Shown here: one piece after another, positions 1 to 50,000 of the stretch
How positions within the stretch are numbered: the stretch's first letter is position 1
How the letters are laid out: the number at the start of each line of letters is the position of its first letter
From: Candidatus Caenarcanales bacterium
GTDB lineage: Bacteria > Cyanobacteriota > Vampirovibrionia > Caenarcaniphilales > Caenarcanaceae
Length of the DNA stretch: 64,000 bases
Reading direction: 5' to 3'
Assembly: GCA_030065015.1 (NCBI GenBank)
Contig: JASJDU010000020.1
Coordinates: 1,978 to 65,977 of the forward strand
Made by a program: the position numbers and the translations under genes
Notes under the pieces: generated by a model
What the model was told of the DNA's origin: nothing
Seen by the model: only the letters and a program-made list of their open reading frames with translations
The model's database searches: none

Positions 1-414
1 ATTATTGGGATCCAAACCTTTTATCTCAAGTAGTTTATCCAAGTTTTGTGCGGCTATTTTATTCCTTTCCATAAAAAAGACCGCTCTTCGCATTAGAGTA
101 ATTGCCCGGTCGTAGTTTTTCCGCTCGGCCATTTGCTTACCATAATTGTTATAAGAAGTGCTTAGGCTTTCTGCAAAACGGTTGGTATCTTCAGGATTTA
201 ACTTCCAAGCTTCATAGAATGCTTCAACTGCCGCTTGAAAATCCCCCTGATTGGCCAACTCCACTCCCCTGTTTGCCCAGCTCTTTGCAACCGGAGATGG
301 AGAGTATTTATTCTGAATCATCGAGGGACTTTGCCCCTGAGAGGTAACTGCCTGAGGAAAGGTCAAAACTGCTAATCCCAAACAGCACAAAGCAAATTTG
401 TTACATCTAATCAT
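1..414 (-). CDS. Secreted TPR-like protein, N-terminal part; the ORF runs off the left window edge (partial)
   Basis: My translation of the minus strand gives an ATG at 412-414 and an open frame down to position 1 (138 codons, no stop). It reads MIRCNKFALCCLGLAVLTFPQAVTSQ (signal-peptide-like) then TPR-like helices (GDFQAAVEAFYEAWKLNPED). The ORF track omits it because no stop falls inside the window. Confidence 0.5.
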   Translation of the reverse strand, partial: MIRCNKFALCCLGLAVLTFPQAVTSQGQSPSMIQNKYSPSPVAKSWANRGVELANQGDFQAAVEAFYEAWKLNPEDTNRFAESLSTSYNNYGKQMAERKNYDRAITLMRRAVFFMERNKIAAQNLDKLLEIKGLDPNN

Positions 415-540
415 TTATCAAGATGGCTGAAAGTTACTAAATATTAAAAAGATAACACTTATGAACCAAATAGCTAAATCATCCAACTATCTACCTTAAC
501 CCCCAAAGCAAAAACTCGGTCAAATAAATACAACTAGCGG

Positions 541-680
541 AATACGCCGTTAAGAATCCTGGTTCTGGAAGGCGTATGTTTCCGGAGCCAACAAAATTCG
601 GGGTTCGGGCTGCGGCAGCCCGGGAGCGGGATCGTTAAGGGCCGGCGGCAGGCCCTTAACACCAATCAACTAAAACTATT
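541..680. other. GC-rich intergenic island with several stable hairpins; a terminator or structured RNA element lying between two minus-strand genes
   Basis: Read directly from the sequence. There is a perfect 10-bp stem gttaagggcc/ggcccttaac with a 7-nt loop at about 634-660. A second stem cgggctg/cagcccg with a 3-nt loop lies at about 607-623. A third is CUGGAA/UUCCGG with a 10-nt loop at about 563-584, and a fourth is atacgcc/ggcgtat. On the minus strand the hairpins are followed by AATTTTGTT. The local GC content contrasts sharply with the AT-rich surroundings. Confidence 0.4.
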
Positions 681-717
681 ACAAACCAGCTAAAAAATCC
701 AAAGACTCACCAAAGAC

Positions 718-2148
718 TCATTTCAATTTACTTTTCAATATAAACATCGATGTTGAACTGAGAATAGAAGGTTTTTCTCCAACACATAAGTCACAAATTC
801 CACATTGATTTTGTTCCTGCAGATTAGAAGTTAAAACCTGCTCTAAATTTTGCCATCTACAACCTTTAGTATTGGATATCCAATCGAGTGACTGCCTCGC
901 AAGTTTTTTAAAGTCAACTTGAAACCCATCTCGGTTGTACTTAACCTGCATAAAATTATTTTCTTCTGGAGAAGGATTAAAATCATCTTCACAAATAAGC
1001 AGATGAGACTCCTTATAAGAAGCAGTATATTTACCGGACGATTCATTATTATTCAAAGTTGATTTCAATACATGAATATCCTTATAAAATTCAGTCAAAC
1101 TGGCTGGAACTGAATAATGAATCAGCCTATAAATATCAGGTCTCGCAATACCTTCCATTAAAGAGCTAGAGGCTATAAAAATAGGACACGGATCATTTAA
1201 GAAATAATCCAAAGCTTCCGCTCTTTGTTCCATTGGCAGTGCCTTGTGCAAGGCTCTAATTGTAGTATCCGGCAACTTATCTCTCAAAAAGTTTATTAAT
1301 TCACTCAGATCTTCATTTTGAGGCACATATACTAAGGTTGGTTTTTTGTCCTTTAAGAGCTGAGCTAAATGCTTCCTTTTATCCAATCGAGAAAAGCAAT
1401 ACTTTGTCTTTAAACTAACACCTTTTAAGCGAAAACTCTCTTGAATTACAGCAGTATTTGGGAAGAAACGCATAAAATGCTGCACTGTTTCTTTTGAACA
1501 ATTGCAGGATAATCCCAAAATTGGTTTCTTAAGTTTTTTAACTAAAGTTATTGCTTCCTGGTATTTTTCTTTAAATATGGCATTGGTCCTCGAAAACAAT
1601 TCAAATTCGCAAAGAACAACTCTGTCTAGTCTTTCTAAGACTTTTTTAGAATTCTTGAGCACCTGCTTGCCCAGATCTGTTTCCTCCATCTTTTTATAGT
1701 GTTGAATGGCAGAGGAGTTCAATCCAGAAGAAAACCAATATAAAAAGCTTTCTGGTGTTACAAACAAAAGTCTATATTCACCTTTCGCTATTTCTTCCAA
1801 CAAATGCCTGGCTTGATTTGGGAATAAATCGCTGGTTAAGCAAGCGATTTTCTTGAACTCCCTAGAATCCTTATGAGAATTAGCCTCCCTCTGAACAGAA
1901 GATACCGAGGGCAAAATCACAACTGTTAAATCAGTTTCTTCATTTTCGAAAGCAGCTTGCTTATAATACTCAGCATGATTCGCAAAAAGACTAATAATAA
2001 TTGAATCTACATTATTTTTTATTTGATTGAACACCCTGTCGTTCGTTTGAGAAGGAACAACCTTAGAAAAACTTAATTTTCTTTTGTTTTGAGCTTTATC
2101 GCTTTGATCTTCAGAAGACAATTCTTTATCGGTTATAGGCAATTGCAA
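718..2148 (-). CDS. RecQ-family helicase homolog with degenerate catalytic motifs; predicted to be ATPase-dead
   Basis: It is collinear with E. coli RecQ from recall. The motif Ia region LTVVILPSVSSV matches LTVVVSPLISLM, GEYRLLFVTPE matches GQIRLLYIAPE, and the helicase-C region matches. The Zn-binding cysteines are retained (CRWQ...CGICDLC). The Walker A GGGKS has become ANHAE, DEAH has become CEFE, and the motif VI RAGR is absent. The frame is one uninterrupted ORF. Confidence 0.6.
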   Translation of the reverse strand: MQLPITDKELSSEDQSDKAQNKRKLSFSKVVPSQTNDRVFNQIKNNVDSIIISLFANHAEYYKQAAFENEETDLTVVILPSVSSVQREANSHKDSREFKKIACLTSDLFPNQARHLLEEIAKGEYRLLFVTPESFLYWFSSGLNSSAIQHYKKMEETDLGKQVLKNSKKVLERLDRVVLCEFELFSRTNAIFKEKYQEAITLVKKLKKPILGLSCNCSKETVQHFMRFFPNTAVIQESFRLKGVSLKTKYCFSRLDKRKHLAQLLKDKKPTLVYVPQNEDLSELINFLRDKLPDTTIRALHKALPMEQRAEALDYFLNDPCPIFIASSSLMEGIARPDIYRLIHYSVPASLTEFYKDIHVLKSTLNNNESSGKYTASYKESHLLICEDDFNPSPEENNFMQVKYNRDGFQVDFKKLARQSLDWISNTKGCRWQNLEQVLTSNLQEQNQCGICDLCVGEKPSILSSTSMFILKSKLK

Positions 2149-2227
2149 TAAAAGATGTTAAACTGGTATTAATCAAATAATAAGATTCATATAATATCAA
2201 TTTTTTAATTTTTTTCCTTTATATTTA

Positions 2228-3475
2228 ATGATACGCAGCATATACAACTCTTCCCAAAGTGTATATTCTTTGCCGAATACTCCTAACAGGTTGCGCGGCA
2301 AACAACCCACACGTATGTGTTCTGCTCAAGGTTCAAGACAAACACAAAGGCTTTATTCCGCCCCAACTGTTAATCAACCAGTAAACAATCAACAGGCTAG
2401 TCTTCCTCCTGGATATTATCCAAATTTGGGAATAGTGCCCCCTGGCTCTCAAGTTCCAACCCAACAACCAGATTCTGGTGACGAAGAGGAGAAAGTAGCT
2501 CCTTGGATTGATGCTTTAATTCCACCTAAGAGTGAAGTGAAAAAATATGAGAAAGTAATAGCTGGAATGAATAATTTACCTGATGACAATCCTTATGACA
2601 ATATAGCTGAACCCTGCATCTCAAACCAAGCATACGAAGTGAAACCAAATGCAGAAATGAAAGAAGTGATATCCGACGTGGATAAAGACATTCGTGAAAG
2701 TCAATCTAACGGAGAACAGATTCTCACTGCTTATGATCCAGCAACACACGCTTATATTGAAGTTGTTAACAGAACTGGTACCCGCTTGAACATAAGAGAA
2801 GTGAAGAAATTGATTGTAATGAAAAGACACGGTGATAACGATTGGATCAACGCATATGTTGATGGTGTTCAATTCCACGAATTACTTCATGAATATGTAC
2901 TTTCTCAAATACCGGATGTGCAAATTGATAAATTCGATCAAGGAGTCAGATTCGTTATGGAGGGAGATGTAAATGATCCCGAAAATCTCAATTTCGAAGT
3001 AACTACCTTCGGACAAACTGTTTTTTATGCCGATGAGATATTTAACAAAACGGACAAGAATGAAGAAAAAGTCGCAACCCTGCAACAACAATATAACCAA
3101 GCACAAGCTCAAGGGTTTAGAAGTTGGACAGAGAATACATTCACTGAATTAATAAACAACCTAAAACAAATGCTCGGAGAGCTTCAATACTTAGCTAAAG
3201 AGGCTACTTTACTGGGACAAGCAGCAGTTGCACCATTAGCACTTCACAATACAATATACAATGAGCATGAGGTACTCTCCGCTTCAGATAAAGAAAGGTA
3301 TGCAGAAGCATCTCAATTAAAAGATCGAATTAATAATTTAATTAGCCAAGTAACTAATTTCATTGGAGTTGTAACAAATACTTGGAACAATTTTGCTGGT
3401 AAAACATCACCGGTAGCAGAAAACAGAATTGTTCCGTTTGAGAGAACCCGTCAAGCCGTTACGTCTGGAAACTGA
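2228..3475 (+). CDS. Hypothetical protein with a Q/P/N-rich low-complexity N-terminus
   Basis: A long ORF of 415 aa, transcribed divergently from the RecQ-like gene. I recognise no domain. Confidence 0.45.
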   Translation: MIRSIYNSSQSVYSLPNTPNRLRGKQPTRMCSAQGSRQTQRLYSAPTVNQPVNNQQASLPPGYYPNLGIVPPGSQVPTQQPDSGDEEEKVAPWIDALIPPKSEVKKYEKVIAGMNNLPDDNPYDNIAEPCISNQAYEVKPNAEMKEVISDVDKDIRESQSNGEQILTAYDPATHAYIEVVNRTGTRLNIREVKKLIVMKRHGDNDWINAYVDGVQFHELLHEYVLSQIPDVQIDKFDQGVRFVMEGDVNDPENLNFEVTTFGQTVFYADEIFNKTDKNEEKVATLQQQYNQAQAQGFRSWTENTFTELINNLKQMLGELQYLAKEATLLGQAAVAPLALHNTIYNEHEVLSASDKERYAEASQLKDRINNLISQVTNFIGVVTNTWNNFAGKTSPVAENRIVPFERTRQAVTSGN

Positions 3476-4013
3476 AACCACCTTTATTCTTCTCTAGTGT
3501 TTTTATTGACTCTTCTACTAAAGTGAGCATTGCATTGATGGTTTTACTACTATTTTTTCTTCTTTCTCTTCTCTGTTTCTTTCTTTCGCTTTTTCTTCTC
3601 TTTTGCTCATCGGGATCAATATCTTCAAGAGAATCTTCTTCAAATTCCTCTGTAATAGCTTTGAGAATTTCTTTTTCTTCTTCCGCGGATATTGGGAACT
3701 TTTTAGATAAAAGTTCTTTCAAGCAAGAAAAAGCACAAAAGGCCAAAGCCTGCCTAGAATTTGGTGGAATTTTAAGCTGATTTAATACTTGTTGAATTTG
3801 TGGATCTTTGAAAGATTTTTCTAAAAGTTGACTTAGTTTTGAGACAACTTTATGAGGGGGTAATTTAAAAAGACCAGAGAGTTCTGATTCTTGAGATGAA
3901 GAAATTAAGTTTGTGCCCTCTTTGTTTCCAGCTTGCTTTTTCAACTCGGGCTTAGCTAAAGGATTAAATTTATCCGGAAAGAAATTTGGCCCACCAATTT
4001 TACTTGGATCCAT
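3459..4013 (-). CDS. Hypothetical highly charged K/E/R-rich protein
   Basis: An ORF of 184 aa. Its 3' end overlaps 2228..3475 convergently by 17 nt. The C-terminus has an RKKQRRERRK basic patch. Confidence 0.4.
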   Translation of the reverse strand: MDPSKIGGPNFFPDKFNPLAKPELKKQAGNKEGTNLISSSQESELSGLFKLPPHKVVSKLSQLLEKSFKDPQIQQVLNQLKIPPNSRQALAFCAFSCLKELLSKKFPISAEEEKEILKAITEEFEEDSLEDIDPDEQKRRKSERKKQRRERRKNSSKTINAMLTLVEESIKTLEKNKGGFSFQT

Positions 4014-4184
4014 AATGATTCAATTAAACCTAAAAGTTTTTGATATTCAACTGATTAGTTAAATAATTCTCTCAGATAGAGATACAGTTTTGTTGCAAAT
4101 ACATAATAACTAAGAGCTATCAAAAATGCCAAAAGCAAGACAATTGAAAGTCTTAATGAATATATTTTAATCTCTCAATTGAAA

Positions 4185-4946
4185 CTACTGATTTAAAGAG
4201 AAAAGTTTTTTTGTATTTTCAGTTGTTATTGAATCCACCTCTTTATCTTCAATACTATGAATTTCCGCCAGCATTGAATTAACCTCAGTTACAAAAACTG
4301 GTTCATTACGTTTACCTCTATGTTTTTGTGGGGCTAGAAATGGACAATCAGTCTCAATGAGAGTTCTACTTAATGGAATATTTCTTGCTTCTTCACGAAG
4401 TTTTTTTGAGTTCTTGAATGTTAAGCATCCAGAAAAAGATGTATAAAAACCTAGTTCCCAAAACTTAGCAGAATATTCAGCATCACCAGTATAACAATGC
4501 ATCACTCCACCGCCCGGATCCTCTTCTCTAAGTATTTTGAGAGTATCTTCAAATGCATCTCTGCAGTGAATTATTAAAGGAAGCTTGAGTTCTTTAGCTA
4601 ACTTACAATGCTTTCTAAAAACCGTTTCTTGCACATCCAAGGGGCAATCCTTATGGAAATAGTCTAATCCAGTTTCTCCAATCGCGATAATTTTATCTTT
4701 GTACTTTAAAATATCCGACTCACATTCGTCGCTCCAATGATGAGCATCACAAGGATGAACTCCAGCACTGAGGTGGACCATGGAATATTGTTCTTGCAAA
4801 TCGAACATTTTTTCAAGATCTTTAGTGTGAACACAAGAGTGAATGAAAGCTTCTACTTTATTGCTTAAAGCTCTCTCGATAACTTCACTACGATCATAGT
4901 CAAAAGACTCCCAAATTAAATGTGCGTGACTATCTATCATTTCCAC
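4185..4946 (-). CDS. tatD: TatD-family metal-dependent hydrolase/DNase
   Basis: It begins MEMIDSHAHL, and the HxH start with conserved His/Asp/Glu ladder is typical of TatD, at the usual length of 253 aa. Confidence 0.85.
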   Translation of the reverse strand: MEMIDSHAHLIWESFDYDRSEVIERALSNKVEAFIHSCVHTKDLEKMFDLQEQYSMVHLSAGVHPCDAHHWSDECESDILKYKDKIIAIGETGLDYFHKDCPLDVQETVFRKHCKLAKELKLPLIIHCRDAFEDTLKILREEDPGGGVMHCYTGDAEYSAKFWELGFYTSFSGCLTFKNSKKLREEARNIPLSRTLIETDCPFLAPQKHRGKRNEPVFVTEVNSMLAEIHSIEDKEVDSITTENTKKLFSLNQ

Positions 4947-6364: not shown

Positions 6365-7318
6365 CTAGCCAAATAATTCAGAAACCATTCTAAATGCATT
6401 TAGTCCCACCGGGGCTAAAAGTAATAAGACAATTGGCAGAACTATAAAGACAATCGTTTGAGTAGACATTTTGGTGGGGATTTGAGCAATTTCAGATTCA
6501 ATCATCTGCTTACGCCTTTCCCTAAAGAAATCCGACATTTTAAAGAGAGCTTCCGCAACACTACCACCAGTTTTTTCACTTTGGTTTATTAAAGAAGTAA
6601 AGTAACGTATGTTCTTCGATTCACTTCTGTCAACTAATCTTTTCCAAGATTCTTGTCTGTCCATTCCCAAGTTCACATCCGATTGCCAGGCCAAAAAATC
6701 TTCTTTCACAGGTTTAAGCAAGGGATCATCTTCTAAATCTACGAGAATGTAACCAGCCGCAATATCGAAGCTAACACCAGCAATACAACAATTTGCAAAA
6801 AGATCGATAATATCCGGCAATGTTTTATCAATTTTATAAGAACGATCTTTAATTTTCCTATTCATTTCAGTACTCGGAGCTAGATAGAAAAGAAGACCCA
6901 AGCACAATGCAACAGCGAGGCCAGCAAACAAATCAACCCCAGTAAAAACAATCAAAATTCCCAGCCCAACTCCGGTTACTGCACCAGCAATTTGTTGAAA
7001 AAACAACGCAATATGATCATGAGGACGCCTCATACCAGCTTTGTTGAGCATAGTAAGCTTCTCTTGACTCGGAACAGGTGCTAATTTCCCAATCATATTG
7101 ACCAAGTCTTTATTTAAAGTATCTAAAAAACTTTCTTGAGGCTCTCTAGATTCCAAAAGACCTTGATCTTCAAAATTTTCTTGAATTATTGCAATTCTTC
7201 TATTTAAAGTTTCAGAACTTGTAGCGTTAGTTTGCTTTTGTTTACTTTGTACCATCATAAAGATGATGACACCGCAAATAACCAAAAGAATAAAAAAGCC
7301 GATGATAATTAAATTCAT
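6365..7318 (-). CDS. tadC: Tad/Flp-pilus-type secretion inner-membrane protein (GspF/T2SSF-like), TadC position
   Basis: A polytopic membrane protein, third gene of the tadA-tadB-tadC order. Confidence 0.6.
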   Translation of the reverse strand: MNLIIIGFFILLVICGVIIFMMVQSKQKQTNATSSETLNRRIAIIQENFEDQGLLESREPQESFLDTLNKDLVNMIGKLAPVPSQEKLTMLNKAGMRRPHDHIALFFQQIAGAVTGVGLGILIVFTGVDLFAGLAVALCLGLLFYLAPSTEMNRKIKDRSYKIDKTLPDIIDLFANCCIAGVSFDIAAGYILVDLEDDPLLKPVKEDFLAWQSDVNLGMDRQESWKRLVDRSESKNIRYFTSLINQSEKTGGSVAEALFKMSDFFRERRKQMIESEIAQIPTKMSTQTIVFIVLPIVLLLLAPVGLNAFRMVSELFG

Positions 7319-7323
7319 AATGG

Positions 7324-8322
7324 TTAAGTATCAATTGACTTCACAGTTTTATACATCACATTAATTCCAATGCAATACCAAACAAAAGAAATGAAAGCAA
7401 TAAGCTTTCCTATCGGTATTCCACCAGGATCCCATGAGAAAAACTCAGAGTAAGCCTCCGGCCATGCAAATGCTAGTAAGGGTATTACAATCCAAGGAAA
7501 CGAGGCTAAGATACAAATACCCATTATGTTCTCGGAAATAGCTATATTAATTAGTCCTTGCAACCTAAACCTTTGAACAATTACACGAGATAAAGTAGAT
7601 AAAATGGGTGCAAGCGCTGAACCAGTTTGATTTGCAACTTTAATTGCAATTACAAATATGAGCAAATTCTTTGAGGGTATCCTTGTTTTAAAACGATCGA
7701 GAGCCGTATTCATATCCGTTCCGAGACCCAATTCAGTAGCTAAAATACCCATTTCTGTTGCAAGAGGAGGTTCGGAACCTTCAGCAATGAACTTAATGGA
7801 GCTCATAAAGGTACCACCCGCTTTCATACTGGCGGACATAACATCAAGCCCAACACCAAATTGTTCATCAAAAATAGTTACCCTTTTTCCAATATGCATA
7901 TTGAGTATAAAGTAGGCCAAAACCGGTACTAAAAAAACCACACATATTGAAAAGAATATTGCCCAAAGACCAAAAGTACTTTGCAACAGCCACATTGGCA
8001 AAAAGCCGGTTACTATTGTTATAAAAGCAACAATAAGCGACCATTCTAAAGCTTTAATTTTGTACCCGGCTTGAAGAATTTTGTCTCCAAGAAGTGGAAA
8101 TCTGTCGGTGAGTCGAGAATCAATATGTTCAATAACACTTTGTTGATACTCAGCGAACTCAGCACTTACTGCTTCATCCTCCATTCCTCTAGATTGTGCA
8201 GCAAAAGTTTGACGGATACGGTCTTCAGTATACTCTTTTTGAGTCAAGTCCATATAAAACTTGGCTGCAATACCGAGAATAATGGCGGAAAAAACAATTA
8301 TTATTATGGAAAGCAAATCCAT
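7324..8322 (-). CDS. tadB: Tad/Flp-pilus-type secretion inner-membrane protein (GspF/T2SSF-like), TadB position
   Basis: Membrane protein; the cytoplasmic segment FDEQFGVGLDVMSASMKAGG resembles a T2SSF domain. It sits 5 nt upstream of tadC. Confidence 0.6.
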   Translation of the reverse strand: MDLLSIIIIVFSAIILGIAAKFYMDLTQKEYTEDRIRQTFAAQSRGMEDEAVSAEFAEYQQSVIEHIDSRLTDRFPLLGDKILQAGYKIKALEWSLIVAFITIVTGFLPMWLLQSTFGLWAIFFSICVVFLVPVLAYFILNMHIGKRVTIFDEQFGVGLDVMSASMKAGGTFMSSIKFIAEGSEPPLATEMGILATELGLGTDMNTALDRFKTRIPSKNLLIFVIAIKVANQTGSALAPILSTLSRVIVQRFRLQGLINIAISENIMGICILASFPWIVIPLLAFAWPEAYSEFFSWDPGGIPIGKLIAFISFVWYCIGINVMYKTVKSIDT

Positions 8323-8338
8323 ATCTATTATTCCTATA

Positions 8339-9748
8339 TCAAATTAACCGACGAGGACCTTGGGCCTGTTGCTTGGCCGATTGACCTGAGACATCCGGAG
8401 CAAAAAGATCCATTGGAACATCTATTCCGTTTGCCCTTAAGTGTTTAACTGCATTTGGTAAAACCCCTGTTGGCATAAACTGACCGACAATTTTGCCATT
8501 TTGATCAACACCGGTTTGCTTAAAAACAAAGATATCCTGAGTTGTTATAGTTTCTCCTTCCATTCCAACAATTTCACTTATTTGCTTTATTCTCCTGCTT
8601 CCATCAGAGAATCTTGATTGCAAAGCAACAATGTTAATTGTTGAAGAGATCATCTCCCTTACAGTCTTTAAAGGAAGATCGATACCACTCATTAAAACAA
8701 GTGTTTCAAGTCGTTTTAAAGTATCTCGAGTTGTATTTGCATGCAATGTGGTCATAGATCCTTCGTGGCCAGTGTTCATAGCCTGCAACATATCTATTGC
8801 TTCTCCGGAACGACACTCACCTACTACTATTCGGTTGGGTCTCATACGTAATGAGTTTTTTACTAAATCTCTAGCGGTTACCAATCCTTGTCCTTCAGCA
8901 TTTGCAGGTCTAGTTTCAAGCCTAACAACATGATCAATATAGTGATGCAGTCGCAGCTCTGCAGAATCTTCGATTGTAATTATACGTTCTTCATTCGGAA
9001 TGAATGCCGATAACGCATTTAGAGTAGTTGTCTTACCGGATCCAGTTCCGCCGGCAACCAAAAGATTCAATTTACCTTTGACACACATTGATAGGAACTT
9101 AGCCATTTTGGGTGTCAAAGCTCCAAATTGCACCAAGTCATCCATCAGCAAGGCTTTTTTAGGAAACTTACGGATCGTCAGAATACATCCATCTAGAGCC
9201 AGAGGAGGAATAATAGCATTGACACGAGATCCATCAGGTAAACGGGCATCCACCATTGGGCTGGCATGATCCACTCTTCTGCCTATTCTCAAAGTAATTC
9301 TTTTAATTACGTGGAGTAGATGGGTTTCATCCTCAAAAATAATTTCTTTGAGTCTTATACACTTTCCATCTTTTTCTACATAAACGGTCTTAAAATTGTT
9401 GACCATAATTTCAGTAATTGTGTCATCTCTCAAAAGAGGTTCCAACGGACCGAAACCAAGAACTTCGTCAGTGAGCTCACTGATCATCATGGCTTTTTGT
9501 TCAGGGCTTAAAGGAATACCCTGTCTGGCAGCTAAAGCATTAACTATTTGTCCAATTTGCTGTTTAACTTCGTGCTGATTTACATCTCCTGCTAAATCTT
9601 CAGGAGCAATTTCATTGAGTAATTGACTATGTAATTCTTTACGAAGCTTGTAATAAGCAGGTGTTTTCAGATTTTGTTGTCCACCACCAATGATTTTACT
9701 CTGCTCTTTAATAGCCTTAATCCTATCCATTACATTAGGATCTGACAT
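8339..9748 (-). CDS. cpaF: CpaF/TadA-type secretion ATPase (VirB11/GspE superfamily)
   Basis: Walker A VAGGTGSGKTTTLNAL. Length 469 aa, with the typical CpaF architecture. Confidence 0.85.
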   Translation of the reverse strand: MSDPNVMDRIKAIKEQSKIIGGGQQNLKTPAYYKLRKELHSQLLNEIAPEDLAGDVNQHEVKQQIGQIVNALAARQGIPLSPEQKAMMISELTDEVLGFGPLEPLLRDDTITEIMVNNFKTVYVEKDGKCIRLKEIIFEDETHLLHVIKRITLRIGRRVDHASPMVDARLPDGSRVNAIIPPLALDGCILTIRKFPKKALLMDDLVQFGALTPKMAKFLSMCVKGKLNLLVAGGTGSGKTTTLNALSAFIPNEERIITIEDSAELRLHHYIDHVVRLETRPANAEGQGLVTARDLVKNSLRMRPNRIVVGECRSGEAIDMLQAMNTGHEGSMTTLHANTTRDTLKRLETLVLMSGIDLPLKTVREMISSTINIVALQSRFSDGSRRIKQISEIVGMEGETITTQDIFVFKQTGVDQNGKIVGQFMPTGVLPNAVKHLRANGIDVPMDLFAPDVSGQSAKQQAQGPRRLI

Positions 9749-15128: not shown

Positions 15129-16460
15129 ATGTTACTTAAAAAGGAACTATTTTCTAAATCATTTTCAGCTGTTCCTTTTGGCATCTTTAGAAATTTCATA
15201 AGAATAACTTTGCTCCTTTCTCTTTTTTTAACTAGCTTCAATGTTGAACTACAAGCAAGTACTTCTTCGTCAAACGTACTACTTCTTGGCGTTACTTTGA
15301 ACGATTTATCTTTCGAGGATGCTCAAAGATTCAGCAAACACAATGTATTAGAAAGAGCCTTTACTAGTGGAGACAATGTAAAAGATCTCGTTAAACAAAG
15401 TAGACCTATTGCCGTAATAATAAAACAACCTTCCGGTGGCATTTATGAATACTCACCAGATGGCTCATTAATTAAACAACTTTCACAAAAAAGTGAAATG
15501 AAGAAAGTGATGGAAATGCAAAGAACCAGCAATCTTCCAACGGAAATACAAAACCAAGGATTTACACATCGTGCTACTAATTTGCCAAGAAGTAATGCAC
15601 CCCCCTTTATGGGGCAACAATTTCCAAACATGCCAATGAGGTATCCAACAACTCCTCCTCCAATGAGGCCATGTACAGTCTGTAGACCAATTGGGTCTTC
15701 TCCCCTCAAAAAAATGCCAATGTTTGGACCTTATGACATAAAGCATTCATATAGAAGTGCTTCAGTACCAATAGCAATGGCTCCAATGATGATCCCAAAC
15801 AGCCAACCTTCATCAATTCAACAACCAGCTTACAATCCTCAAACACCACAAAATCGACAAGTACTGACTTCTTTCAATCAACAAAGACACTCACCATTAA
15901 ACAATCGTCCCAACTTGGTTCCACCACCTTCATTCTCAACTAGAACTATGAATGCCCCATTTCCCGGAGCCGAAATTCCGTCCAATGTATTCCCAGGTAA
16001 ATCCGAATATAGTTACCTACCAGGAGAAGGAGATAATGATCCACCACAAGGAATTGCTCAAAGTCGTCAAGTTTTAAAACAATTAGCCGGTCTTGCACAG
16101 AATAACGCCTACCCATTTTGGTTTGATAACTTCCTACAAACAGACGCTAATGCAACTCAATTCTTAGGTAATAATGTCGGGGGAGCGGCAGTAGGAACAA
16201 ATGCAGGATTCCCCACTCTCAACTTTACGGCCGACACAACTGCAAATGCAGCCGTTGTTGGAAGCCAATGGACTCAAACCGGGGTTGGAATTGGTTCTTT
16301 ATTAATTGACTCCTTCTTAGAAGGCCGTGAAATTCAAGCAAGAAGAGCGGCAAGAAGAGCAGATGCAGCTGGAAGTGCCTATTACTATTACCCTAACAAT
16401 GCAAACACCTACTATCCTTCAACACCATACCAACCGATTCCAAATCGAAATTGGTATTAA
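15129..16460 (+). CDS. Secreted low-complexity P/Q/N/Y-rich protein
   Basis: It has an N-terminal hydrophobic segment and long P/Q/N/M-rich tracts, and ends with a YYYYPNNANTYYPSTPYQP tail. Confidence 0.5.
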   Translation: MLLKKELFSKSFSAVPFGIFRNFIRITLLLSLFLTSFNVELQASTSSSNVLLLGVTLNDLSFEDAQRFSKHNVLERAFTSGDNVKDLVKQSRPIAVIIKQPSGGIYEYSPDGSLIKQLSQKSEMKKVMEMQRTSNLPTEIQNQGFTHRATNLPRSNAPPFMGQQFPNMPMRYPTTPPPMRPCTVCRPIGSSPLKKMPMFGPYDIKHSYRSASVPIAMAPMMIPNSQPSSIQQPAYNPQTPQNRQVLTSFNQQRHSPLNNRPNLVPPPSFSTRTMNAPFPGAEIPSNVFPGKSEYSYLPGEGDNDPPQGIAQSRQVLKQLAGLAQNNAYPFWFDNFLQTDANATQFLGNNVGGAAVGTNAGFPTLNFTADTTANAAVVGSQWTQTGVGIGSLLIDSFLEGREIQARRAARRADAAGSAYYYYPNNANTYYPSTPYQPIPNRNWY

Positions 16461-47038: not shown

Positions 47039-50000
47039 ATGTTGCAAAACTGGTTAAATTTCCTCCAAAGCTTTCATTTGTCATTACCGAATATTGCATT
47101 TATTCTTATTCTCGGTTTCTGCTTTTTAGCTTGGCAACTGTACACAGAGCTTTTTCATGAACAGTCTTCAAGTAAAAATTACGCCTTCTATCAAAACCTT
47201 CTTAAAAAAATCTCGAGAGAAATAACAAACAAATTCACTCAAAAAGATACAACTAAAGAATCTCAAAACCAACATAATGAAGGAAAGTTTTTTTCCATTA
47301 GAACTGTTATCAGTAAAGAAAAAACGACGGATTCAATTTCAAACGAAGAAGAACCCGAATTCAGTAAAGCAACTTTAAGAAAACAAAGAACAATAGCAAG
47401 TCAAGAAAAAGTTTTCAAAAAAGAACAACCTGAAATAAGAAAAGAAATTGAGAATAATGAGAACAAAAACTCCTCATCAAGACAAAATAAATTCATACAA
47501 AAATACTTTAAAGAAAAAGAAACAGATACTCAAAATTTAAGAATAACGAAGAAATATCCAATTAATTCAAACAGACTTGTAAATCAAAAAAACAAAATTA
47601 ATATTTTGAAAGATTCAACAATTTCACAGTCCAACTTTAATCCACAAACAAATGAAGAATTAAACGAAAAATTGCTTGAAACCAGGATAGACCTGTCAAA
47701 GACAAATTCATCTCAAGACATTAGGTCAACTCGCCCGAATGTCACAACAAACTTTATGGAAAATTTTGTTAGCGAAAACAAAAAAACATTTTTTCCTTTT
47801 TTAGAAATTCAATATCCGGTTATACACAGAAATAAAGAACTGAATTACATAAAAAGCCATTTTCACAAAAATAATTTCTTATTCTTGATTGGTGAAAACG
47901 GAATTGGGAAATCATATCTTGCAAGCTTATATGCAAAGGATATGTTCAACATCAATGAATCTAACGTATTATCCTTTTCTTTTGATCAAAGTATTAATTC
48001 TTTAAATGATGGATTAAAAATCATTTTGACAGAGCAATGTGGACTATCACCAATCAGCATTGAAGATCCCCTACAAACCTTTACCCAGATACTGAACAAT
48101 GAAGAGTTTATTGTTTTATTGAATAACATTGAATTGATTAACAAAAATGACTTAATAAAGCTACTCAATTCAAATGTTATTTGTTCTAAATTGATTCTGA
48201 TCAGCAGTACACTATCGGCCAATTCAATATGCAGACTAGATAATAATTTCAAAAGAAATATATTAGAGATTATTTCTATCAATAATCAAGAAGTTAAAAA
48301 TTTCTTTTTAGAGAAGGTTTCAATTGGGTTTAAAGCAAGCCCAGCTTTAGTTTCAGACCTATTTGAGTTCACAAAAGGGAGTCCTTTCAATTTAATTCTT
48401 TTTTGTTCACTATTAGAAAAACTAATTGAGCAAAATAACAATTTATCTTTAGAAGAAGCCTTTCAGCTAATTTTCTCTTCAAAAAAACATTTAGATAAAA
48501 ACTCAAGCAACTATCTACCCCAGCTGATTTCTTATTTCCTTGAACACTTAACTCAGTCTGAGAAACAAATACTTTTATTCTGCAGTTATATACCAATAAA
48601 CATTTTTTCAAATAGTCTAATTCAATTTATCTTCAACCTATCGGAAAATGAATGTGTCCAAACCTTAAACTCTTTGAAGAACTCTGGATTAATCAGAAAA
48701 GTTTTTTCCAAGCCTTACCAAGAACCTTGTTTTGCGGTTCACAATCTCGTGAAAGAGTTTATCTACAAAGAAAAAAGTATTGCTAGCCTAAACTTCGAAG
48801 AATTAGTACCTAAAATGGCTTTTTATCTTTTAGAAGTCCTCAGAGACGATAAAAGAGTTCAAAACGAAAATACAATATTTTTAGTATCAGCCTTAGACTA
48901 TTGTGTTAGCCAATTGAATGTTAATTTTGACGAAAGAGCACAACTACTTCCAATATTTGAAAAAACAATTGATTACTTCTGTTCAATTGGCTTAAAGCAT
49001 AAGGTACAGAGCGAAATTGTCTCAATCTTTAGAGACAATCTGGAAAAATCGCAAGCTCCAACTGTAAAAGCTTTTTGGACCAGATTACTTGGCCTTTGTT
49101 CATTAGTTCTAGCAAAAGGAAACGAATTCAACGATGCTGAAAGAAATTCTCAGTACATTCACGAGGGAATTTCTCTCTTAAATTCTTCACTAGAAATTTT
49201 TCAGAAGAACTTTAATTTTCTTGAAGAACAAAAAACATATAACGATCTAGGAAACGCCTACTTAACTTTGTCAGAAGAGGAGCTTACTGAAGACAACCTC
49301 ATAAAAGCGGTTGAATATTTCAAGAAAACAATTAAATTGCAGAGTTCTATGAAAATGACTCTCCAAAATGTTAATTCGATTAAGCCGAATAATAACTCCG
49401 TTATGAATTCTTCAACATTTGTTTTATCTCATATAAGTCTTGGTAATTCCTACATGAAACTATATTCTGTAAAACCAAGCGCCTTAACTCTTCACTTAGC
49501 AAGTCAAATATTGATTAAATCTATTCAAGAATTCAGGAAAGAATTGCCCAATAGCATTCTCTCCTCAGTTCACCGCAATATTGCAGATGCTTTTAGATTA
49601 TTAGCCGATCACGAAGAAACAGTGGCTAATTTATGTACAGCAATTGACTCATACAAAGAATCTTTGATTGGAGTTAATGAGGAAATTAAGCCTCTAATCT
49701 TTAACAGCATCGGTTGTTGCTTCTGGAAAATGTCTAAAGTAAAAGATACAAGTAAAAACATAGAACAAGCAATAGCATTTTACAGAAAGACTTTGTCCTG
49801 TCTAATCAATCAACATTCGTCTACAGCAAAAGAATCCATCGAATGTGCTGTAACTCTCAACAACCTTGGAATAGCCTACAAAACCTTATCGCAACTAAAA
49901 GATCCAAACTCAAATAGATCTTTAGCCTTTATAGCCTTCAGAGAGGCACTATCCATCGCAGAGAAAAAAGAGGATTATGAAATAATCAATACCATAAAAA

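What the first reader, a model, noticed from the sequence alone, without database searches (positions are those of the whole stretch)
718..2148. RecQ-like protein that keeps the Zn-binding domain but has lost all ATPase and helicase catalytic motifs
The 476-aa protein is collinear with RecQ motif by motif. The comparison is from recall of E. coli RecQ.

| RecQ motif | E. coli RecQ | This protein |
|---|---|---|
| Ia | LTVVVSPLISLM | LTVVILPSVSSV |
| Ib | RLLYIAPE | RLLFVTPE |
| Helicase-C | AAAYHAGL...VVATVAFGMGI | IRALHKAL...FIASSSLMEGI |
| Zn finger | 4 Cys (C...CGNCDIC) | 4 Cys kept (C...CGICDLC) |
| Walker A | PTGGGKS | LFANHAE |
| DEAH | DEAH | CEFE |
| Motif VI Arg finger | QETGRAGRDG | KDIHVLKSTLNN |

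The frame is intact, so this looks like a maintained catalytically dead RecQ paralog. It would act as a DNA-binding or regulatory pseudo-helicase rather than being a decaying pseudogene. It is transcribed divergently from an unknown 415-aa low-complexity protein (2228..3475), with which it may function.
Basis: partly seen in the sequence, partly recalled or inferred. Interest (0 to 1): 0.55.

Follow-up and report, generated by a model that had tools for sequence, protein, structure and literature searches.

The report
Conserved dead RecQ-like helicase with partner
This gene encodes a protein with the shape and zinc finger of the DNA-unwinding enzyme RecQ but without its ATP-burning site, and it has been kept intact across a little-studied group of bacteria (Caenarcaniphilales/Melainabacteria), nearly always beside the same unknown HExxH-motif gene, so it is probably a repurposed non-motor protein.

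Summary
ORF 718..2148(-) encodes a 474-476 aa protein that aligns in order with RecQ, and its predicted fold matches only RecQ-family cores (RecA1-RecA2-Zn, with no winged helix or HRDC).

Mapped onto E. coli RecQ, motif 0, Walker A Lys/Ser, the Asp and His of DExH and both motif VI arginines are missing. All four zinc cysteines are kept. The same losses occur in all 18 family members examined, which share 22-60% identity.

An exhaustive search found only 10 family clusters at 50% identity. Every member that carries a source name is from Caenarcaniphilales/"Melainabacteria". The only unsaturated ortholog pair gives dN/dS = 0.16, so this is a maintained pseudo-helicase and not a decaying gene.

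New findings:
- In 10 of the 12 distinct loci examined the gene is divergently paired with an orphan ~350-415 aa protein (window 2228..3475) that carries an invariant HExxH.
- In 9 of those 10 paired loci (partial in one) the two genes flank a conserved ~50-nt intergenic block. It is probably a shared promoter or operator.

DNA binding, contact with the partner, any protease activity and the presence of a canonical recQ in the same genome were not tested. My best reading is an ATP-independent binding or adaptor subunit that works with the HExxH protein. It is a new variant of a known kind and of moderate interest.

The parts
718..2148 (-). CDS of the RecQ-derived pseudo-helicase, 476 aa from TTG 2148. 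Alternative starts are 2142, 2121 or 2034.
   Evidence: The fold is RecA1-RecA2-Zn, pLDDT 78, pTM 0.78.
1969..1989 (-). Former motif I (Walker A), LFANHAE in place of PTGGGKS. There is no P-loop Gly, Lys or Ser.
1894..1929 (-). Motif Ia, retained (LTVVILPSVSSV).
1750..1773 (-). Motif Ib, retained (RLLFVTPE). It is the most conserved segment of the family (0.87).
1627..1749 (-). Family-specific ~40-aa helical insertion between motifs Ib and II (SFLYWFSSG...GKQV...). It is absent from canonical RecQ and very highly conserved (0.80).
1600..1611 (-). Former motif II, CEFE in place of DEAH. The Asp and His are lost and the Glu is kept.
1561..1575 (-). Remnant of the aromatic-rich loop, FKEKY. The positions equivalent to E. 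coli F158/R159 are kept as [F/Y/H]-K and W154 is lost.
1048..1086 (-). Former motif VI, YKDIHVLKSTLNN. There are no arginine fingers. It leads into a loop of variable length that is disordered in the model and is the least conserved part of the protein (0.22).
784..861 (-). RecQ zinc-binding motif, CRW-x16-CGICDLC. All four Cys are invariant in all 18 members.
721..768 (-). C-terminal helix that follows the Zn finger and ends in basic residues (…SMFILKSKLK). The protein stops here, with no winged helix and no HRDC.
   Evidence: The comparison with the RECQL5 post-Zn helix rests and is an inference.
2154..2200 (.). Conserved non-coding block inside the 79-bp divergent intergenic region (2149..2227). 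It holds TATAAT on the partner strand and TTATTA-N17-TAACAT on the pseudo-helicase strand. It is a likely shared promoter or operator.
   Evidence: There are 21 invariant columns across 9 loci, the block is unique in the window, and it has no predicted RNA structure.
2228..3475 (+). Conserved divergent partner, an orphan 415-aa protein. The first ~87 residues are disordered. The HExxH sits in a long helix. The C-terminal three-helix bundle is confidently predicted.
   Evidence: dN/dS is 0.19.
2876..2890 (+). Invariant HExxH motif of the partner (HELLH). It appears as H-E-x-x-H in all 10 distinct partner orthologs read.
3459..4013 (-). Third gene, 184 aa, with no family hit and a highly basic C-terminal stretch. 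It converges on the partner gene. It is conserved at 44-55% identity in 4 loci (window, L008, L004, L007).
1..414 (-). 5' end of a 625-aa TPR protein gene that runs off the window. Its N-terminus looks like a signal peptide by eye. It lies directly downstream of the pseudo-helicase here, in L007 and in L015, where the two genes overlap by 4 bp.

Best explanation
The gene encodes a pseudo-helicase. It descends from a short RecQ-family helicase (two RecA-like domains plus the RecQ zinc-binding domain, without winged helix or HRDC).

Shown:
- The protein has the RecQ fold and zinc motif.
- It lacks every residue RecQ uses to bind and hydrolyse ATP.
- These losses are shared by the whole small family.
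- The family is known only from Caenarcaniphilales/'Melainabacteria' where sources name it.
- The gene is under purifying selection.
- It forms a conserved divergent pair with an orphan HExxH-motif protein, with a conserved intergenic block between them.

Inferred:
- The protein cannot act as a motor. It works as an ATP-independent binding module.
- It most likely still grips single-stranded nucleic acid through the retained motifs Ia, Ib and IV and the aromatic-loop remnant.
- It uses its new, highly conserved 40-residue insertion as an interaction surface.
- It acts together with the co-regulated HExxH protein, either by recruiting it or by controlling it. That protein may be a zinc-dependent hydrolase.
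For: RecQ descent:
- NCBIfam recQ 2.8e-16, recQ_fam 1.6e-12 and Pfam Helicase_C 8.7e-13.
- The alignment to 1oyw runs in order through the protein.
- The AF2 model has pLDDT 78 and pTM 0.78. Its top 50 Foldseek hits are all RecQ-family cores: RECQL5 5e-17, BLM, and bacterial RecQ with TM up to 0.64.

Loss of the ATP site:
- On the real E. coli RecQ sequence, Y23/R27/Q30, K53/S54, D146/H149 and R326/R329 are replaced in the 18 members, and C380/C397/C400/C403 are invariant.
- The roles of these residues are documented in PMC1616949.

A discrete family:
- The exhaustive profile search gives 10 clusters at E<=1e-34 and then canonical RecQs at <=1e-23.
- Named members are Caenarcaniphilales or Melainabacteria.

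Selection:
- dN/dS is 0.16 for L002 against L010.
- In the other pairs pS is saturated (0.64-0.88) while pN is 0.26-0.40.

Constraint has moved within the protein:
- Motif Ib (0.87) and the insertion (0.80) are the most conserved segments.
- The former arginine-finger loop is the least conserved (0.22) and is disordered in the model.

Partner:
- A homologous divergent neighbour is present in 10 of 12 distinct loci, with blastp E from 1e-55 to 2e-9 and hmmsearch E of 3e-33 and 4e-27.
- HExxH is invariant.
- The partner's dN/dS is 0.19.

Co-regulation:
- The intergenic block has 21 invariant columns in 9 loci despite saturated synonymous sites.
- It is unique in the 64-kb window and has no predicted RNA structure.

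Precedent: Deinococcus radiodurans PriA lost ATPase and helicase activity but keeps DNA binding and partner binding.
Against: - No biochemical property was tested, so DNA binding, zinc binding and contact with the partner are all inferred.
- Retention of motifs Ia, Ib and IV could reflect core-fold packing and not nucleic-acid contact.
- The family is only mildly basic (pI mostly 7.2-8.8).
- The specific E. coli backbone-contact residues K222 and K248 are not conserved, although they also vary among canonical RecQs.
- Two distant members (P0017, P0023) lack the partner within 5 kb.
- Gene adjacency does not prove that the two proteins form a complex.
Confidence: 0.6

Rival explanations
1. The protein is a pure protein scaffold or regulator. 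It no longer binds nucleic acid, and the RecQ shell serves only as a folding platform whose conserved insertion binds, chaperones or inhibits the HExxH partner or another protein.
For: - The most conserved segment that is unique to the family is the 40-aa insertion, not a known DNA-contact element.
- W154 of the aromatic-rich loop is lost.
- There is no winged helix to hold duplex DNA.
- The net charge is only modest.
- The pairing with the partner is tight.
Against: - Motifs Ia, Ib and IV and the [F/Y/H]-K of the aromatic loop are kept across 22-60% identity. That would be unexpected if the nucleic-acid face were free to drift in the way the motif VI loop has.
- Two distant members lack the partner nearby.
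Confidence: 0.25
2. The protein is still an NTPase or helicase that uses a non-canonical active site, for example the conserved Asn-His-Ser that replaces GKS together with the retained Glu of motif II.
For: - N-H-[S/A/T] at the former GKS position is conserved in the close clade.
- The motif II Glu/Asp is kept in most members.
Against: - There is no P-loop glycine or lysine.
- The motif 0 adenine-binding residues, the Mg-binding Asp and both arginine fingers are all gone. PMC1616949 reports that the single Lys mutation alone abolishes ATPase activity in RecQ, WRN, RecQ5 and Sgs1.
- The N-H-S triplet is itself not conserved in the distant members P0016-P0023.
- The former arginine-finger loop is the least constrained region.
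Confidence: 0.04
3. The gene is a component of a mobile defence or toxin-antitoxin module related to the RecQ-like PsyrT or DpdF proteins, and the HExxH protein is its partner.
For: PADLOC gives PsyrT 1.1e-15 and DpdF 6.2e-15. NCBIfam gives DpdF 4.5e-11.
Against: - These scores (42-55 bits) are no better than the generic RecQ score, and canonical RecQs hit DpdF far more strongly (121-202 bits).
- The partner and the third gene hit nothing in PADLOC.
- The flanking genes are housekeeping and differ from locus to locus (serS, tatD, coaX, hemA, purL, plsX).
- The family appears to be inherited vertically within one lineage.
- A defence helicase without ATPase activity has no precedent that I know of.
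Confidence: 0.04
4. The protein is a decoy or competitor. A dead paralog would occupy the DNA substrates or protein partners of a canonical RecQ in the same cell and so modulate recombination.
For: - A catalytically inactive RecQ4-family mutant can act in a dominant-negative way through DNA binding (abstract of PMC13586618, listed).
- The fold and zinc domain are retained.
Against: - I could not establish whether a canonical recQ coexists. None was found in the window, and the source names of the top canonical hits were uninformative.
- The winged helix and HRDC are absent. From my own knowledge, not checked here, the winged helix is also where bacterial RecQ binds SSB.
- This rival does not explain the conserved HExxH partner.
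Confidence: 0.06
5. The gene is a decaying pseudogene or a one-off degenerate copy in this genome.
For: None beyond the motif loss itself.
Against: - The ORFs are intact and the substitutions are the same in 18 lineages.
- dN/dS is 0.16.
- The AF2 fold is confident.
- Synteny and the promoter block are conserved.
Confidence: 0.01

Closest known systems
Bacterial RecQ catalytic core (E. coli RecQ 1OYW/1OYY, D. radiodurans RecQ 4Q47/4Q48, C. sakazakii RecQ 4TMU)
   Same: - It has two RecA-like domains followed by the RecQ zinc-binding domain, with the motifs in the same order.
- The CR[R/W]…CxxCDxC zinc motif is present.
- Motifs Ia, Ib and IV are recognisable.
- Foldseek E is 1e-15 to 1e-16 with TM up to 0.64.
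   Different: - Motif 0, Walker A, the Asp and His of DExH and the motif VI arginines are all absent.
- There is no winged helix and no HRDC.
- A 40-aa conserved insertion lies between motifs Ib and II.
- Sequence identity is only 14-22%, and the scores are far below the family cut-offs.
Human RECQL5 helicase domain (5LB3/5LB5/5LB8, 7ZMP)
   Same: - It is the best structural match (E 5e-17).
- It also lacks a winged helix and has a single alpha-helix directly after the Zn domain. Here a helix at residues 460-473 follows the Zn finger.
   Different: - RECQL5 is an active ATPase and helicase with all motifs.
- RECQL5 has a long C-terminal extension (KIX, SRI).
- Whether the terminal helix here sits in the position of the RECQL5 'wedge' helix was not checked on coordinates.
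Short RecQ-family helicases (NCBIfam TIGR00614 members of ~420-510 aa, e.g. P0025, P0031, P0034)
   Same: - The architecture is the same: P0025 (497 aa) ends just after the Zn finger, and P0031 and P0034 align with RecQ models only up to the Zn region, with at most ~65 residues beyond.
- They are among the top-scoring active relatives in the exhaustive search.
- This is plausibly the ancestral type.
   Different: They keep GK[ST], DExH, TATA and QxxGRxGR, and they score 250-370 bits on TIGR00614 against 47 bits here.
Deinococcus radiodurans PriA pseudohelicase (PMC4504706)
   Same: It is a bacterial SF2 DNA helicase whose helicase motifs degenerated within one lineage. The protein is maintained and keeps DNA binding and a protein partner. 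This is the nearest functional analogy.
   Different: - It belongs to a different helicase family (PriA).
- Its role (replication restart, DnaB interaction) is known from the active orthologs.
- Here no active ortholog defines the pathway, and the partner is an orphan.
Zincin-type (HExxH) metallohydrolases, compared with the partner protein only
   Same: The partner has an invariant H-E-x-x-H inside a long helix that follows a beta-sheet.
   Different: - It matches no Pfam, NCBIfam or PDB sequence family and gives no fold match to any zincin.
- No third metal ligand was identified.
- The model confidence is low.

Membership tests
RecQ family ATP-dependent DNA helicase (TIGR00614 / TIGR01389) | Scores at or above the curated family cut-off | tested here: not met
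   recQ_fam scores 47 bits against a cut-off of 219.8, and recQ scores 59.1 bits against 640.2. Active short RecQs score 250-370 bits on recQ_fam.
RecQ family ATP-dependent DNA helicase (TIGR00614 / TIGR01389) | Motif 0, Lx3(F/Y/W)Gx3F(R/K)x2Q, which binds adenine (PMC1616949) | tested here: not met
   The positions equivalent to Y23, R27 and Q30 are not conserved in the 18 members.
RecQ family ATP-dependent DNA helicase (TIGR00614 / TIGR01389) | Motif I, the Walker A sequence Gx4GK(T/S) | tested here: not met
   The window protein has LFANHAE. The K53 position is A/S/T/R/P/E/D and the S54 position is E/L/F/Y/Q/K across the members.
RecQ family ATP-dependent DNA helicase (TIGR00614 / TIGR01389) | Motif II, DExH | tested here: not met
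   The window protein has CEFE. D146 is replaced by C/R/E/N/H/F/T/Y/L, and H149 by E/D/Q/N/Y. Only the Glu position is kept as E or D, in 15 of 18 members.
RecQ family ATP-dependent DNA helicase (TIGR00614 / TIGR01389) | Motif VI with arginine fingers (QxxGRxGR; E. coli R326 and R329) | tested here: not met
   The window protein has KDIHVLKS. The R326 position is I/V/T/F/S/Y/H and the R329 position is S/T/G/Y/Q/K/F/P/E. One member (P0013) has Arg at both positions, but in a non-RecQ context.
RecQ family ATP-dependent DNA helicase (TIGR00614 / TIGR01389) | RecQ-Ct zinc-binding motif C(R/H)(R/H)xnCxxCDxC | tested here: met
   The window protein has CRW-x16-CGICDLC. All four Cys are invariant in 18 of 18 members. 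Zinc binding itself was not measured.
RecQ family ATP-dependent DNA helicase (TIGR00614 / TIGR01389) | Fold of two RecA-like domains plus the Zn domain | tested here: met
   The AF2 model has pLDDT 78 and pTM 0.78. Its top 50 Foldseek PDB hits are all RecQ-family cores.
RecQ family ATP-dependent DNA helicase (TIGR00614 / TIGR01389) | Winged-helix and HRDC domains (typical of bacterial RecQ but not universal in the family) | tested here: not met
   The protein ends 21 residues after the last Cys. There are no RQC or HRDC Pfam hits. RECQL5 and the short RecQs also lack these domains.
RecQ family ATP-dependent DNA helicase (TIGR00614 / TIGR01389) | ATP-dependent 3'-5' DNA unwinding | not testable with these tools
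   This requires purified protein. The sequence predicts no activity.
Pseudohelicase (functional class; e.g. D. radiodurans PriA, yeast Utp25) | Helicase fold with degenerate ATPase motifs, maintained by selection | tested here: met
Pseudohelicase (functional class; e.g. D. radiodurans PriA, yeast Utp25) | Demonstrated lack of ATP hydrolysis together with a retained binding function | not testable with these tools
   This is the biochemical criterion used for DrPriA.
PsyrTA / Dpd defence systems (RecQ-like PsyrT, DpdF) | Specific match to the system's helicase, plus the cognate partner genes nearby | tested here: not met
   The PsyrT (55 bits) and DpdF (53 bits) hits are generic RecQ-like matches. 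The neighbours hit nothing in PADLOC. The genomic context is housekeeping.
Zincin metallopeptidases (for the partner, window 2228..3475) | HExxH metal-binding and catalytic motif in a helix | tested here: met
   The motif is invariant in all 10 partner orthologs and lies in predicted helix 206-225.
Zincin metallopeptidases (for the partner, window 2228..3475) | Zincin fold and a third metal ligand, or a match to a peptidase family | tested here: inconclusive

The most novel reading that the evidence does not exclude
The pseudo-helicase and the orphan HExxH protein would form a previously undescribed two-protein system specific to Caenarcaniphilales and related Melainabacteria. The ~180-aa basic protein might belong to it as well.

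In this reading a motor-less RecQ shell senses a nucleic-acid structure such as ssDNA, a fork or a G4. It then recruits or switches on a novel zinc hydrolase, for example to remove DNA-bound proteins or to cleave a regulator. The system would be expressed from a dedicated, conserved bidirectional promoter.
Probability: 0.2. Interest if true: 0.7.

Novelty: new variant of a known kind. Interest (0 to 1): 0.5.

Why it matters
RecQ helicases are defined by their motor activity. In the models studied, a single Walker A lysine mutation abolishes ATPase and helicase activity (PMC1616949).

This would be a natural, lineage-wide RecQ derivative that removed the whole ATP site. It kept the zinc domain and the nucleic-acid-side motifs, and it gained a new conserved insertion. 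That pattern would suggest the RecQ scaffold has a selectable function that does not depend on the motor. In my literature searches I found pseudohelicases derived from PriA and from DEAD-box proteins, but none derived from RecQ.

It also points to an orphan HExxH protein family and a conserved regulatory element that would otherwise go unannotated in a poorly known bacterial lineage.

There is a practical consequence too. Automated pipelines label these proteins 'ATP-dependent DNA helicase RecQ'. That could wrongly credit these genomes with RecQ activity in metabolic or repair reconstructions.

Tried and rejected
- **AFDB50 fold search.** The library was not available.
- **Genome scan with the 19-member alignment.** The alignment was too diverse to give search patterns. 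I repeated the scan with the 13 close members.
- **Canonical recQ in the same genome.**
  - tblastn with two canonical RecQs found nothing in the 64-kb window.
  - Source names of the ten top-scoring canonical hits did not include Melainabacteria.
  - A literature search on Melainabacteria and RecQ was uninformative.
  - The question stays open.
- **E. coli DNA-contact residues K222, S245, K248, D312 and W347 as a test of retained DNA binding.** I rejected this test because these positions also vary among canonical RecQs.
- **The intergenic block as a structured RNA or a LexA box.** There is no consensus structure. No cyanobacterial, E. coli or Cheo-type SOS box was found.
- **Generic promoter and terminator scan of 300..4300.** The counts were at or below chance.
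- **Defence-system reading.** Rejected.
- **dN/dS on most pairs.** It was unusable because synonymous sites are saturated. Only L002 against L010 was informative.
Full report
**1. The observation**

An identical database protein, P0001 (474 aa), starts two codons further in.

Sequence searches establish RecQ homology but not RecQ membership:
- Pfam finds only Helicase_C (8.7e-13, residues 257-354) and no DEAD/ResIII domain.
- NCBIfam gives recQ TIGR01389 at 59 bits against a cut-off of 640, and recQ_fam TIGR00614 at 47 bits against a cut-off of 220.
- The best PDB sequence match is E. coli RecQ 1oyw.

**2. Motif status, checked against real sequences**

I aligned the protein with canonical RecQs from the searches. 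I then aligned it with E. coli K-12 RecQ taken from the annotated genome. The roles of the residues are those given in PMC1616949.

| Element (E. coli numbering) | State in the 18 family members |
|---|---|
| Motif 0: Y23, R27, Q30 | not conserved |
| Motif I: K53, S54 | replaced in all members (window: LFANHAE) |
| Motif II: D146, H149 | replaced in all members (window: CEFE) |
| Motif II: E147 | kept as E or D in 15 of 18 |
| Motif III: TATA | becomes LSxN |
| Motif VI: R326, R329 | replaced (window: KDIHVLKS) |
| Zn ligands: C380, C397, C400, C403 | invariant in 18 of 18 |
| Motif Ia (LTxVIxPxS), Ib (TPESF), IV (TLVYV) | retained |
| Aromatic-rich loop: F158, R159 | retained as [F/Y/H]-K |
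| Aromatic-rich loop: W154 | lost |

The one nuance is that only the ATP side of the helicase is erased. The nucleic-acid side is largely kept.

**3. Structure**

AlphaFold2 on the 13-sequence family alignment gives pLDDT 78 and pTM 0.78. The first 30 residues and the former motif VI loop (363-371) are disordered.

Every one of the top 50 Foldseek PDB matches is a RecQ-family core. RECQL5 is best at 5e-17, followed by BLM, RECQ1, WRN and bacterial RecQs with TM up to 0.64.

The protein ends 21 residues after the last zinc cysteine with a single helix, so it has no winged helix and no HRDC. RECQL5 likewise lacks a winged helix and has one helix after its Zn domain. Some active short RecQ-family helicases also stop just after the Zn finger, for example P0025 at 497 aa. 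A short RecQ is therefore the likely ancestral architecture.

**4. It is a family, not an accident**

The word-indexed search found 13 relatives at 43-60% identity and then dropped straight to canonical RecQs at about 20%.

The exhaustive HMM search of 1.84 billion representatives found 10 clusters at E<=1e-34, nine of them matched over nearly the whole length of the profile and one a 145-aa fragment. Canonical RecQs begin only at <=1e-23. Members as distant as 22-37% identity (P0016-P0023) show the same losses and the same four cysteines.

Wherever a source gives a name, the organism is Candidatus Caenarcaniphilales or 'Melainabacteria'. The one exception is a bin labelled Synechococcales (L010). 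The window's own assembly is GCA_029976255.1, a Caenarcaniphilales MAG.

**5. Selection**

For the one ortholog pair whose synonymous sites are not saturated (L002 against L010, 75% amino-acid identity), dS is 0.92, dN is 0.15 and dN/dS is 0.16. In all other pairs pS is 0.64-0.88 against pN of 0.26-0.40.

Conservation has been redistributed within the protein:
- Motif Ib (0.87) and a family-specific ~40-residue helical insertion between motifs Ib and II (0.80; SFLYWFSSG…GKQV…) are the most conserved segments.
- The former arginine-finger loop is the least conserved (0.22) and varies in length.

This is the pattern expected when the old active site is released from constraint and a new functional surface is gained. 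It refutes the pseudogene reading.

**6. Genomic context: the new information**

In the window the gene is separated by 79 bp from a divergent 415-aa ORF (2228..3475).

A homologous gene of about 350-415 aa occupies the same divergent position in every closely related locus: L002/L003/L011, L004, L005/L006/L009, L007, L008, L010 and L012. It also occurs beside the distant members P0016 (L013) and P0019 (L015). That makes 10 of 12 distinct loci in which upstream sequence was available. The two exceptions are the very divergent P0017 and P0023.

Features of the partner:
- It has no hit in Pfam, NCBIfam, PHROGs or PADLOC.
- Its dN/dS is 0.19.
- Only 11 columns are invariant across nine orthologs. 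Three of them are the H, E and H of an HExxH motif, which reads HELLH in the window at 2876..2890.
- The two further orthologs read HEFSH and HEGSH.

Its AF2 model is weak (pLDDT 59). It shows:
- a disordered N-terminal stretch of ~87 residues,
- the HExxH inside a long helix that follows a beta-sheet, and
- a confidently predicted C-terminal three-helix bundle.

Two further genes are linked less consistently:
- A 184-aa protein with a strongly basic C-terminal stretch (3459..4013, minus strand) converges on the partner in four loci.
- A TPR protein whose N-terminus looks like a signal peptide lies directly downstream of the pseudo-helicase in three loci, with a 4-bp overlap in L015.

**7. A conserved intergenic element**

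The divergent intergenic regions share a block of about 50 nt (window 2154..2200). Read on the pseudo-helicase strand it is TTGATATTATA-N5-CTTATTATTTG-N-TTAATA-N3-AGTTTAACAT. It has 21 invariant columns across nine loci, even though synonymous sites between these lineages are saturated.

- It occurs once in the 64-kb window, and near-matches are at chance level.
- It has no predicted RNA structure.
- It contains no recognisable SOS box.

It carries a near-perfect TATAAT on the partner's strand, about 33 nt upstream of the ATG. On the other strand, the invariant TTATTA-N17-TAACAT has -35/-10 spacing.

My inference is a shared bidirectional promoter or operator, and hence co-regulation of the two genes. 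If TAACAT is the -10 element, transcription would start near position 2148. That makes the annotated TTG starts doubtful and favours TTG 2121 or GTG 2034. The N-terminal ~45 residues are in any case unconserved and disordered.

**8. What it most likely does**

Shown:
- The protein is RecQ-derived.
- Its ATP site is dismantled.
- It is maintained by selection.
- Its known distribution is restricted to one lineage.
- It is genetically coupled to an HExxH orphan through a conserved control region.

Inferred:
- It acts without ATP as a binding module.
- It probably still engages single-stranded nucleic acid through the retained Ia, Ib, IV and aromatic-loop elements.
- It uses the new insertion as a protein-interaction surface.
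- It works with the HExxH protein.

The closest functional precedent is Deinococcus radiodurans PriA. That pseudohelicase lost ATPase and unwinding activity but keeps DNA binding and its DnaB interaction.

The main rival is a pure protein scaffold or regulator with no nucleic-acid role (about 0.25). The remaining rivals are all unlikely, for the reasons given under the rival explanations:
- a non-canonical ATPase,
- a defence module (the PsyrT and DpdF hits are generic),
- a decoy for a canonical RecQ, and
- pseudogene decay.

**9. Membership, novelty and verdict**

The protein fails the defining catalytic features and the curated score cut-offs of the RecQ family. It should not be annotated as an ATP-dependent RecQ helicase, although JGI/IMG does so for several members.

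It is RecQ-derived by fold and zinc motif. Literature searches returned PriA and DEAD-box pseudohelicases but no RecQ-derived one. I rate it a new variant of a known kind, with interest 0.5.

The structural and evolutionary case is solid, and it would moderately surprise a helicase specialist. The function is still inferred, and the organisms are known to me only as metagenome-assembled genomes.

Whether these genomes also carry a canonical recQ could not be determined with the available tools. That question decides between 'paralog' and 'sole RecQ descendant'.

Noticed in passing
window 2154..2200 (intergenic region 2149..2227): A non-coding block of about 50 nt is conserved in 9 ortholog loci even though synonymous sites are saturated. 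It has TATAAT on the + strand and TTATTA-N17-TAACAT on the - strand. It is unique in the window, has no predicted RNA structure and contains no SOS box. It is a likely bidirectional promoter or operator.
   Followed up: yes
window 3459..4013 (-): A 184-aa protein has no family hit and a very basic C-terminal stretch (KRRKSERKKQRRERRK). It overlaps the 3' end of the HExxH gene by 17 nt. It is conserved at 44-55% identity in L008, L004 and L007 at the same position, so it may be a third member of the module.
   Followed up: partly
window 1..414 (-); L001:11729-13606; L007:9469-11334; L015:2609-4453: A TPR protein of about 620 aa, with an N-terminus that looks like a signal peptide, lies directly downstream of the pseudo-helicase in three lineages. 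In L015 the two genes overlap by 4 bp, which suggests an operon. An exported TPR protein beside a presumably cytoplasmic RecQ-like protein is unexplained. ORF 102..347(+) is probably spurious, because it lies antisense within this gene.
   Followed up: partly
partner orthologs: L008:3805-5046, L002:6687-7877, L007:6761-7909, L012:4648-5826, L013:3668-4894: Several partner orthologs carry an N-terminal CxCxxC motif inside the otherwise disordered region. Examples are CLCSAC, CSCASC, CACNVC, CNCSYC and CSCPIC. In the window copy it is degenerate, with a single Cys. It could be a second small metal-binding element.
   Followed up: no
L011 and L012 (contigs CANLFK010000007.1 and CANLFK010000029.1 of MAG ZE-3nov15-135): One MAG carries two copies of the pseudo-helicase-partner pair on different contigs, only about 48% identical to each other. 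This could be a mixed bin of two Caenarcaniphilales populations or a real duplication.
   Followed up: no
family members P0007, P0008, P0009, P0013, P0171: JGI/IMG names these proteins 'superfamily II DNA helicase RecQ' or 'ATP-dependent DNA helicase RecQ', although they lack the ATP-site motifs. This is a systematic misannotation.
   Followed up: yes
window 47039..50113 (+) and 15129..16460 (+): Two large ORFs (1024 aa and 443 aa) have no Pfam hit at E<=1e-5, in an otherwise housekeeping region (RNR, PurL, SecY, LeuA, GH3).
   Followed up: no
window 6365..9748 (-): A Tad/type II secretion-like cluster (two T2SSF-domain genes and a T2SSE ATPase) lies a few kb from the finding. It is not conserved next to the orthologs.
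   Followed up: no
L002:4530-5829: Three consecutive HicB-HicA antitoxin-toxin pairs lie in tandem, about 2 kb from the pseudo-helicase ortholog.
   Followed up: no
L010 (JAAFJH010000100.1): A contig carrying the Melainabacteria-type pair is filed under a 'Synechococcales cyanobacterium' bin. This is probably a binning or labelling error. If the label is correct, the family would extend into photosynthetic cyanobacteria.
   Followed up: no
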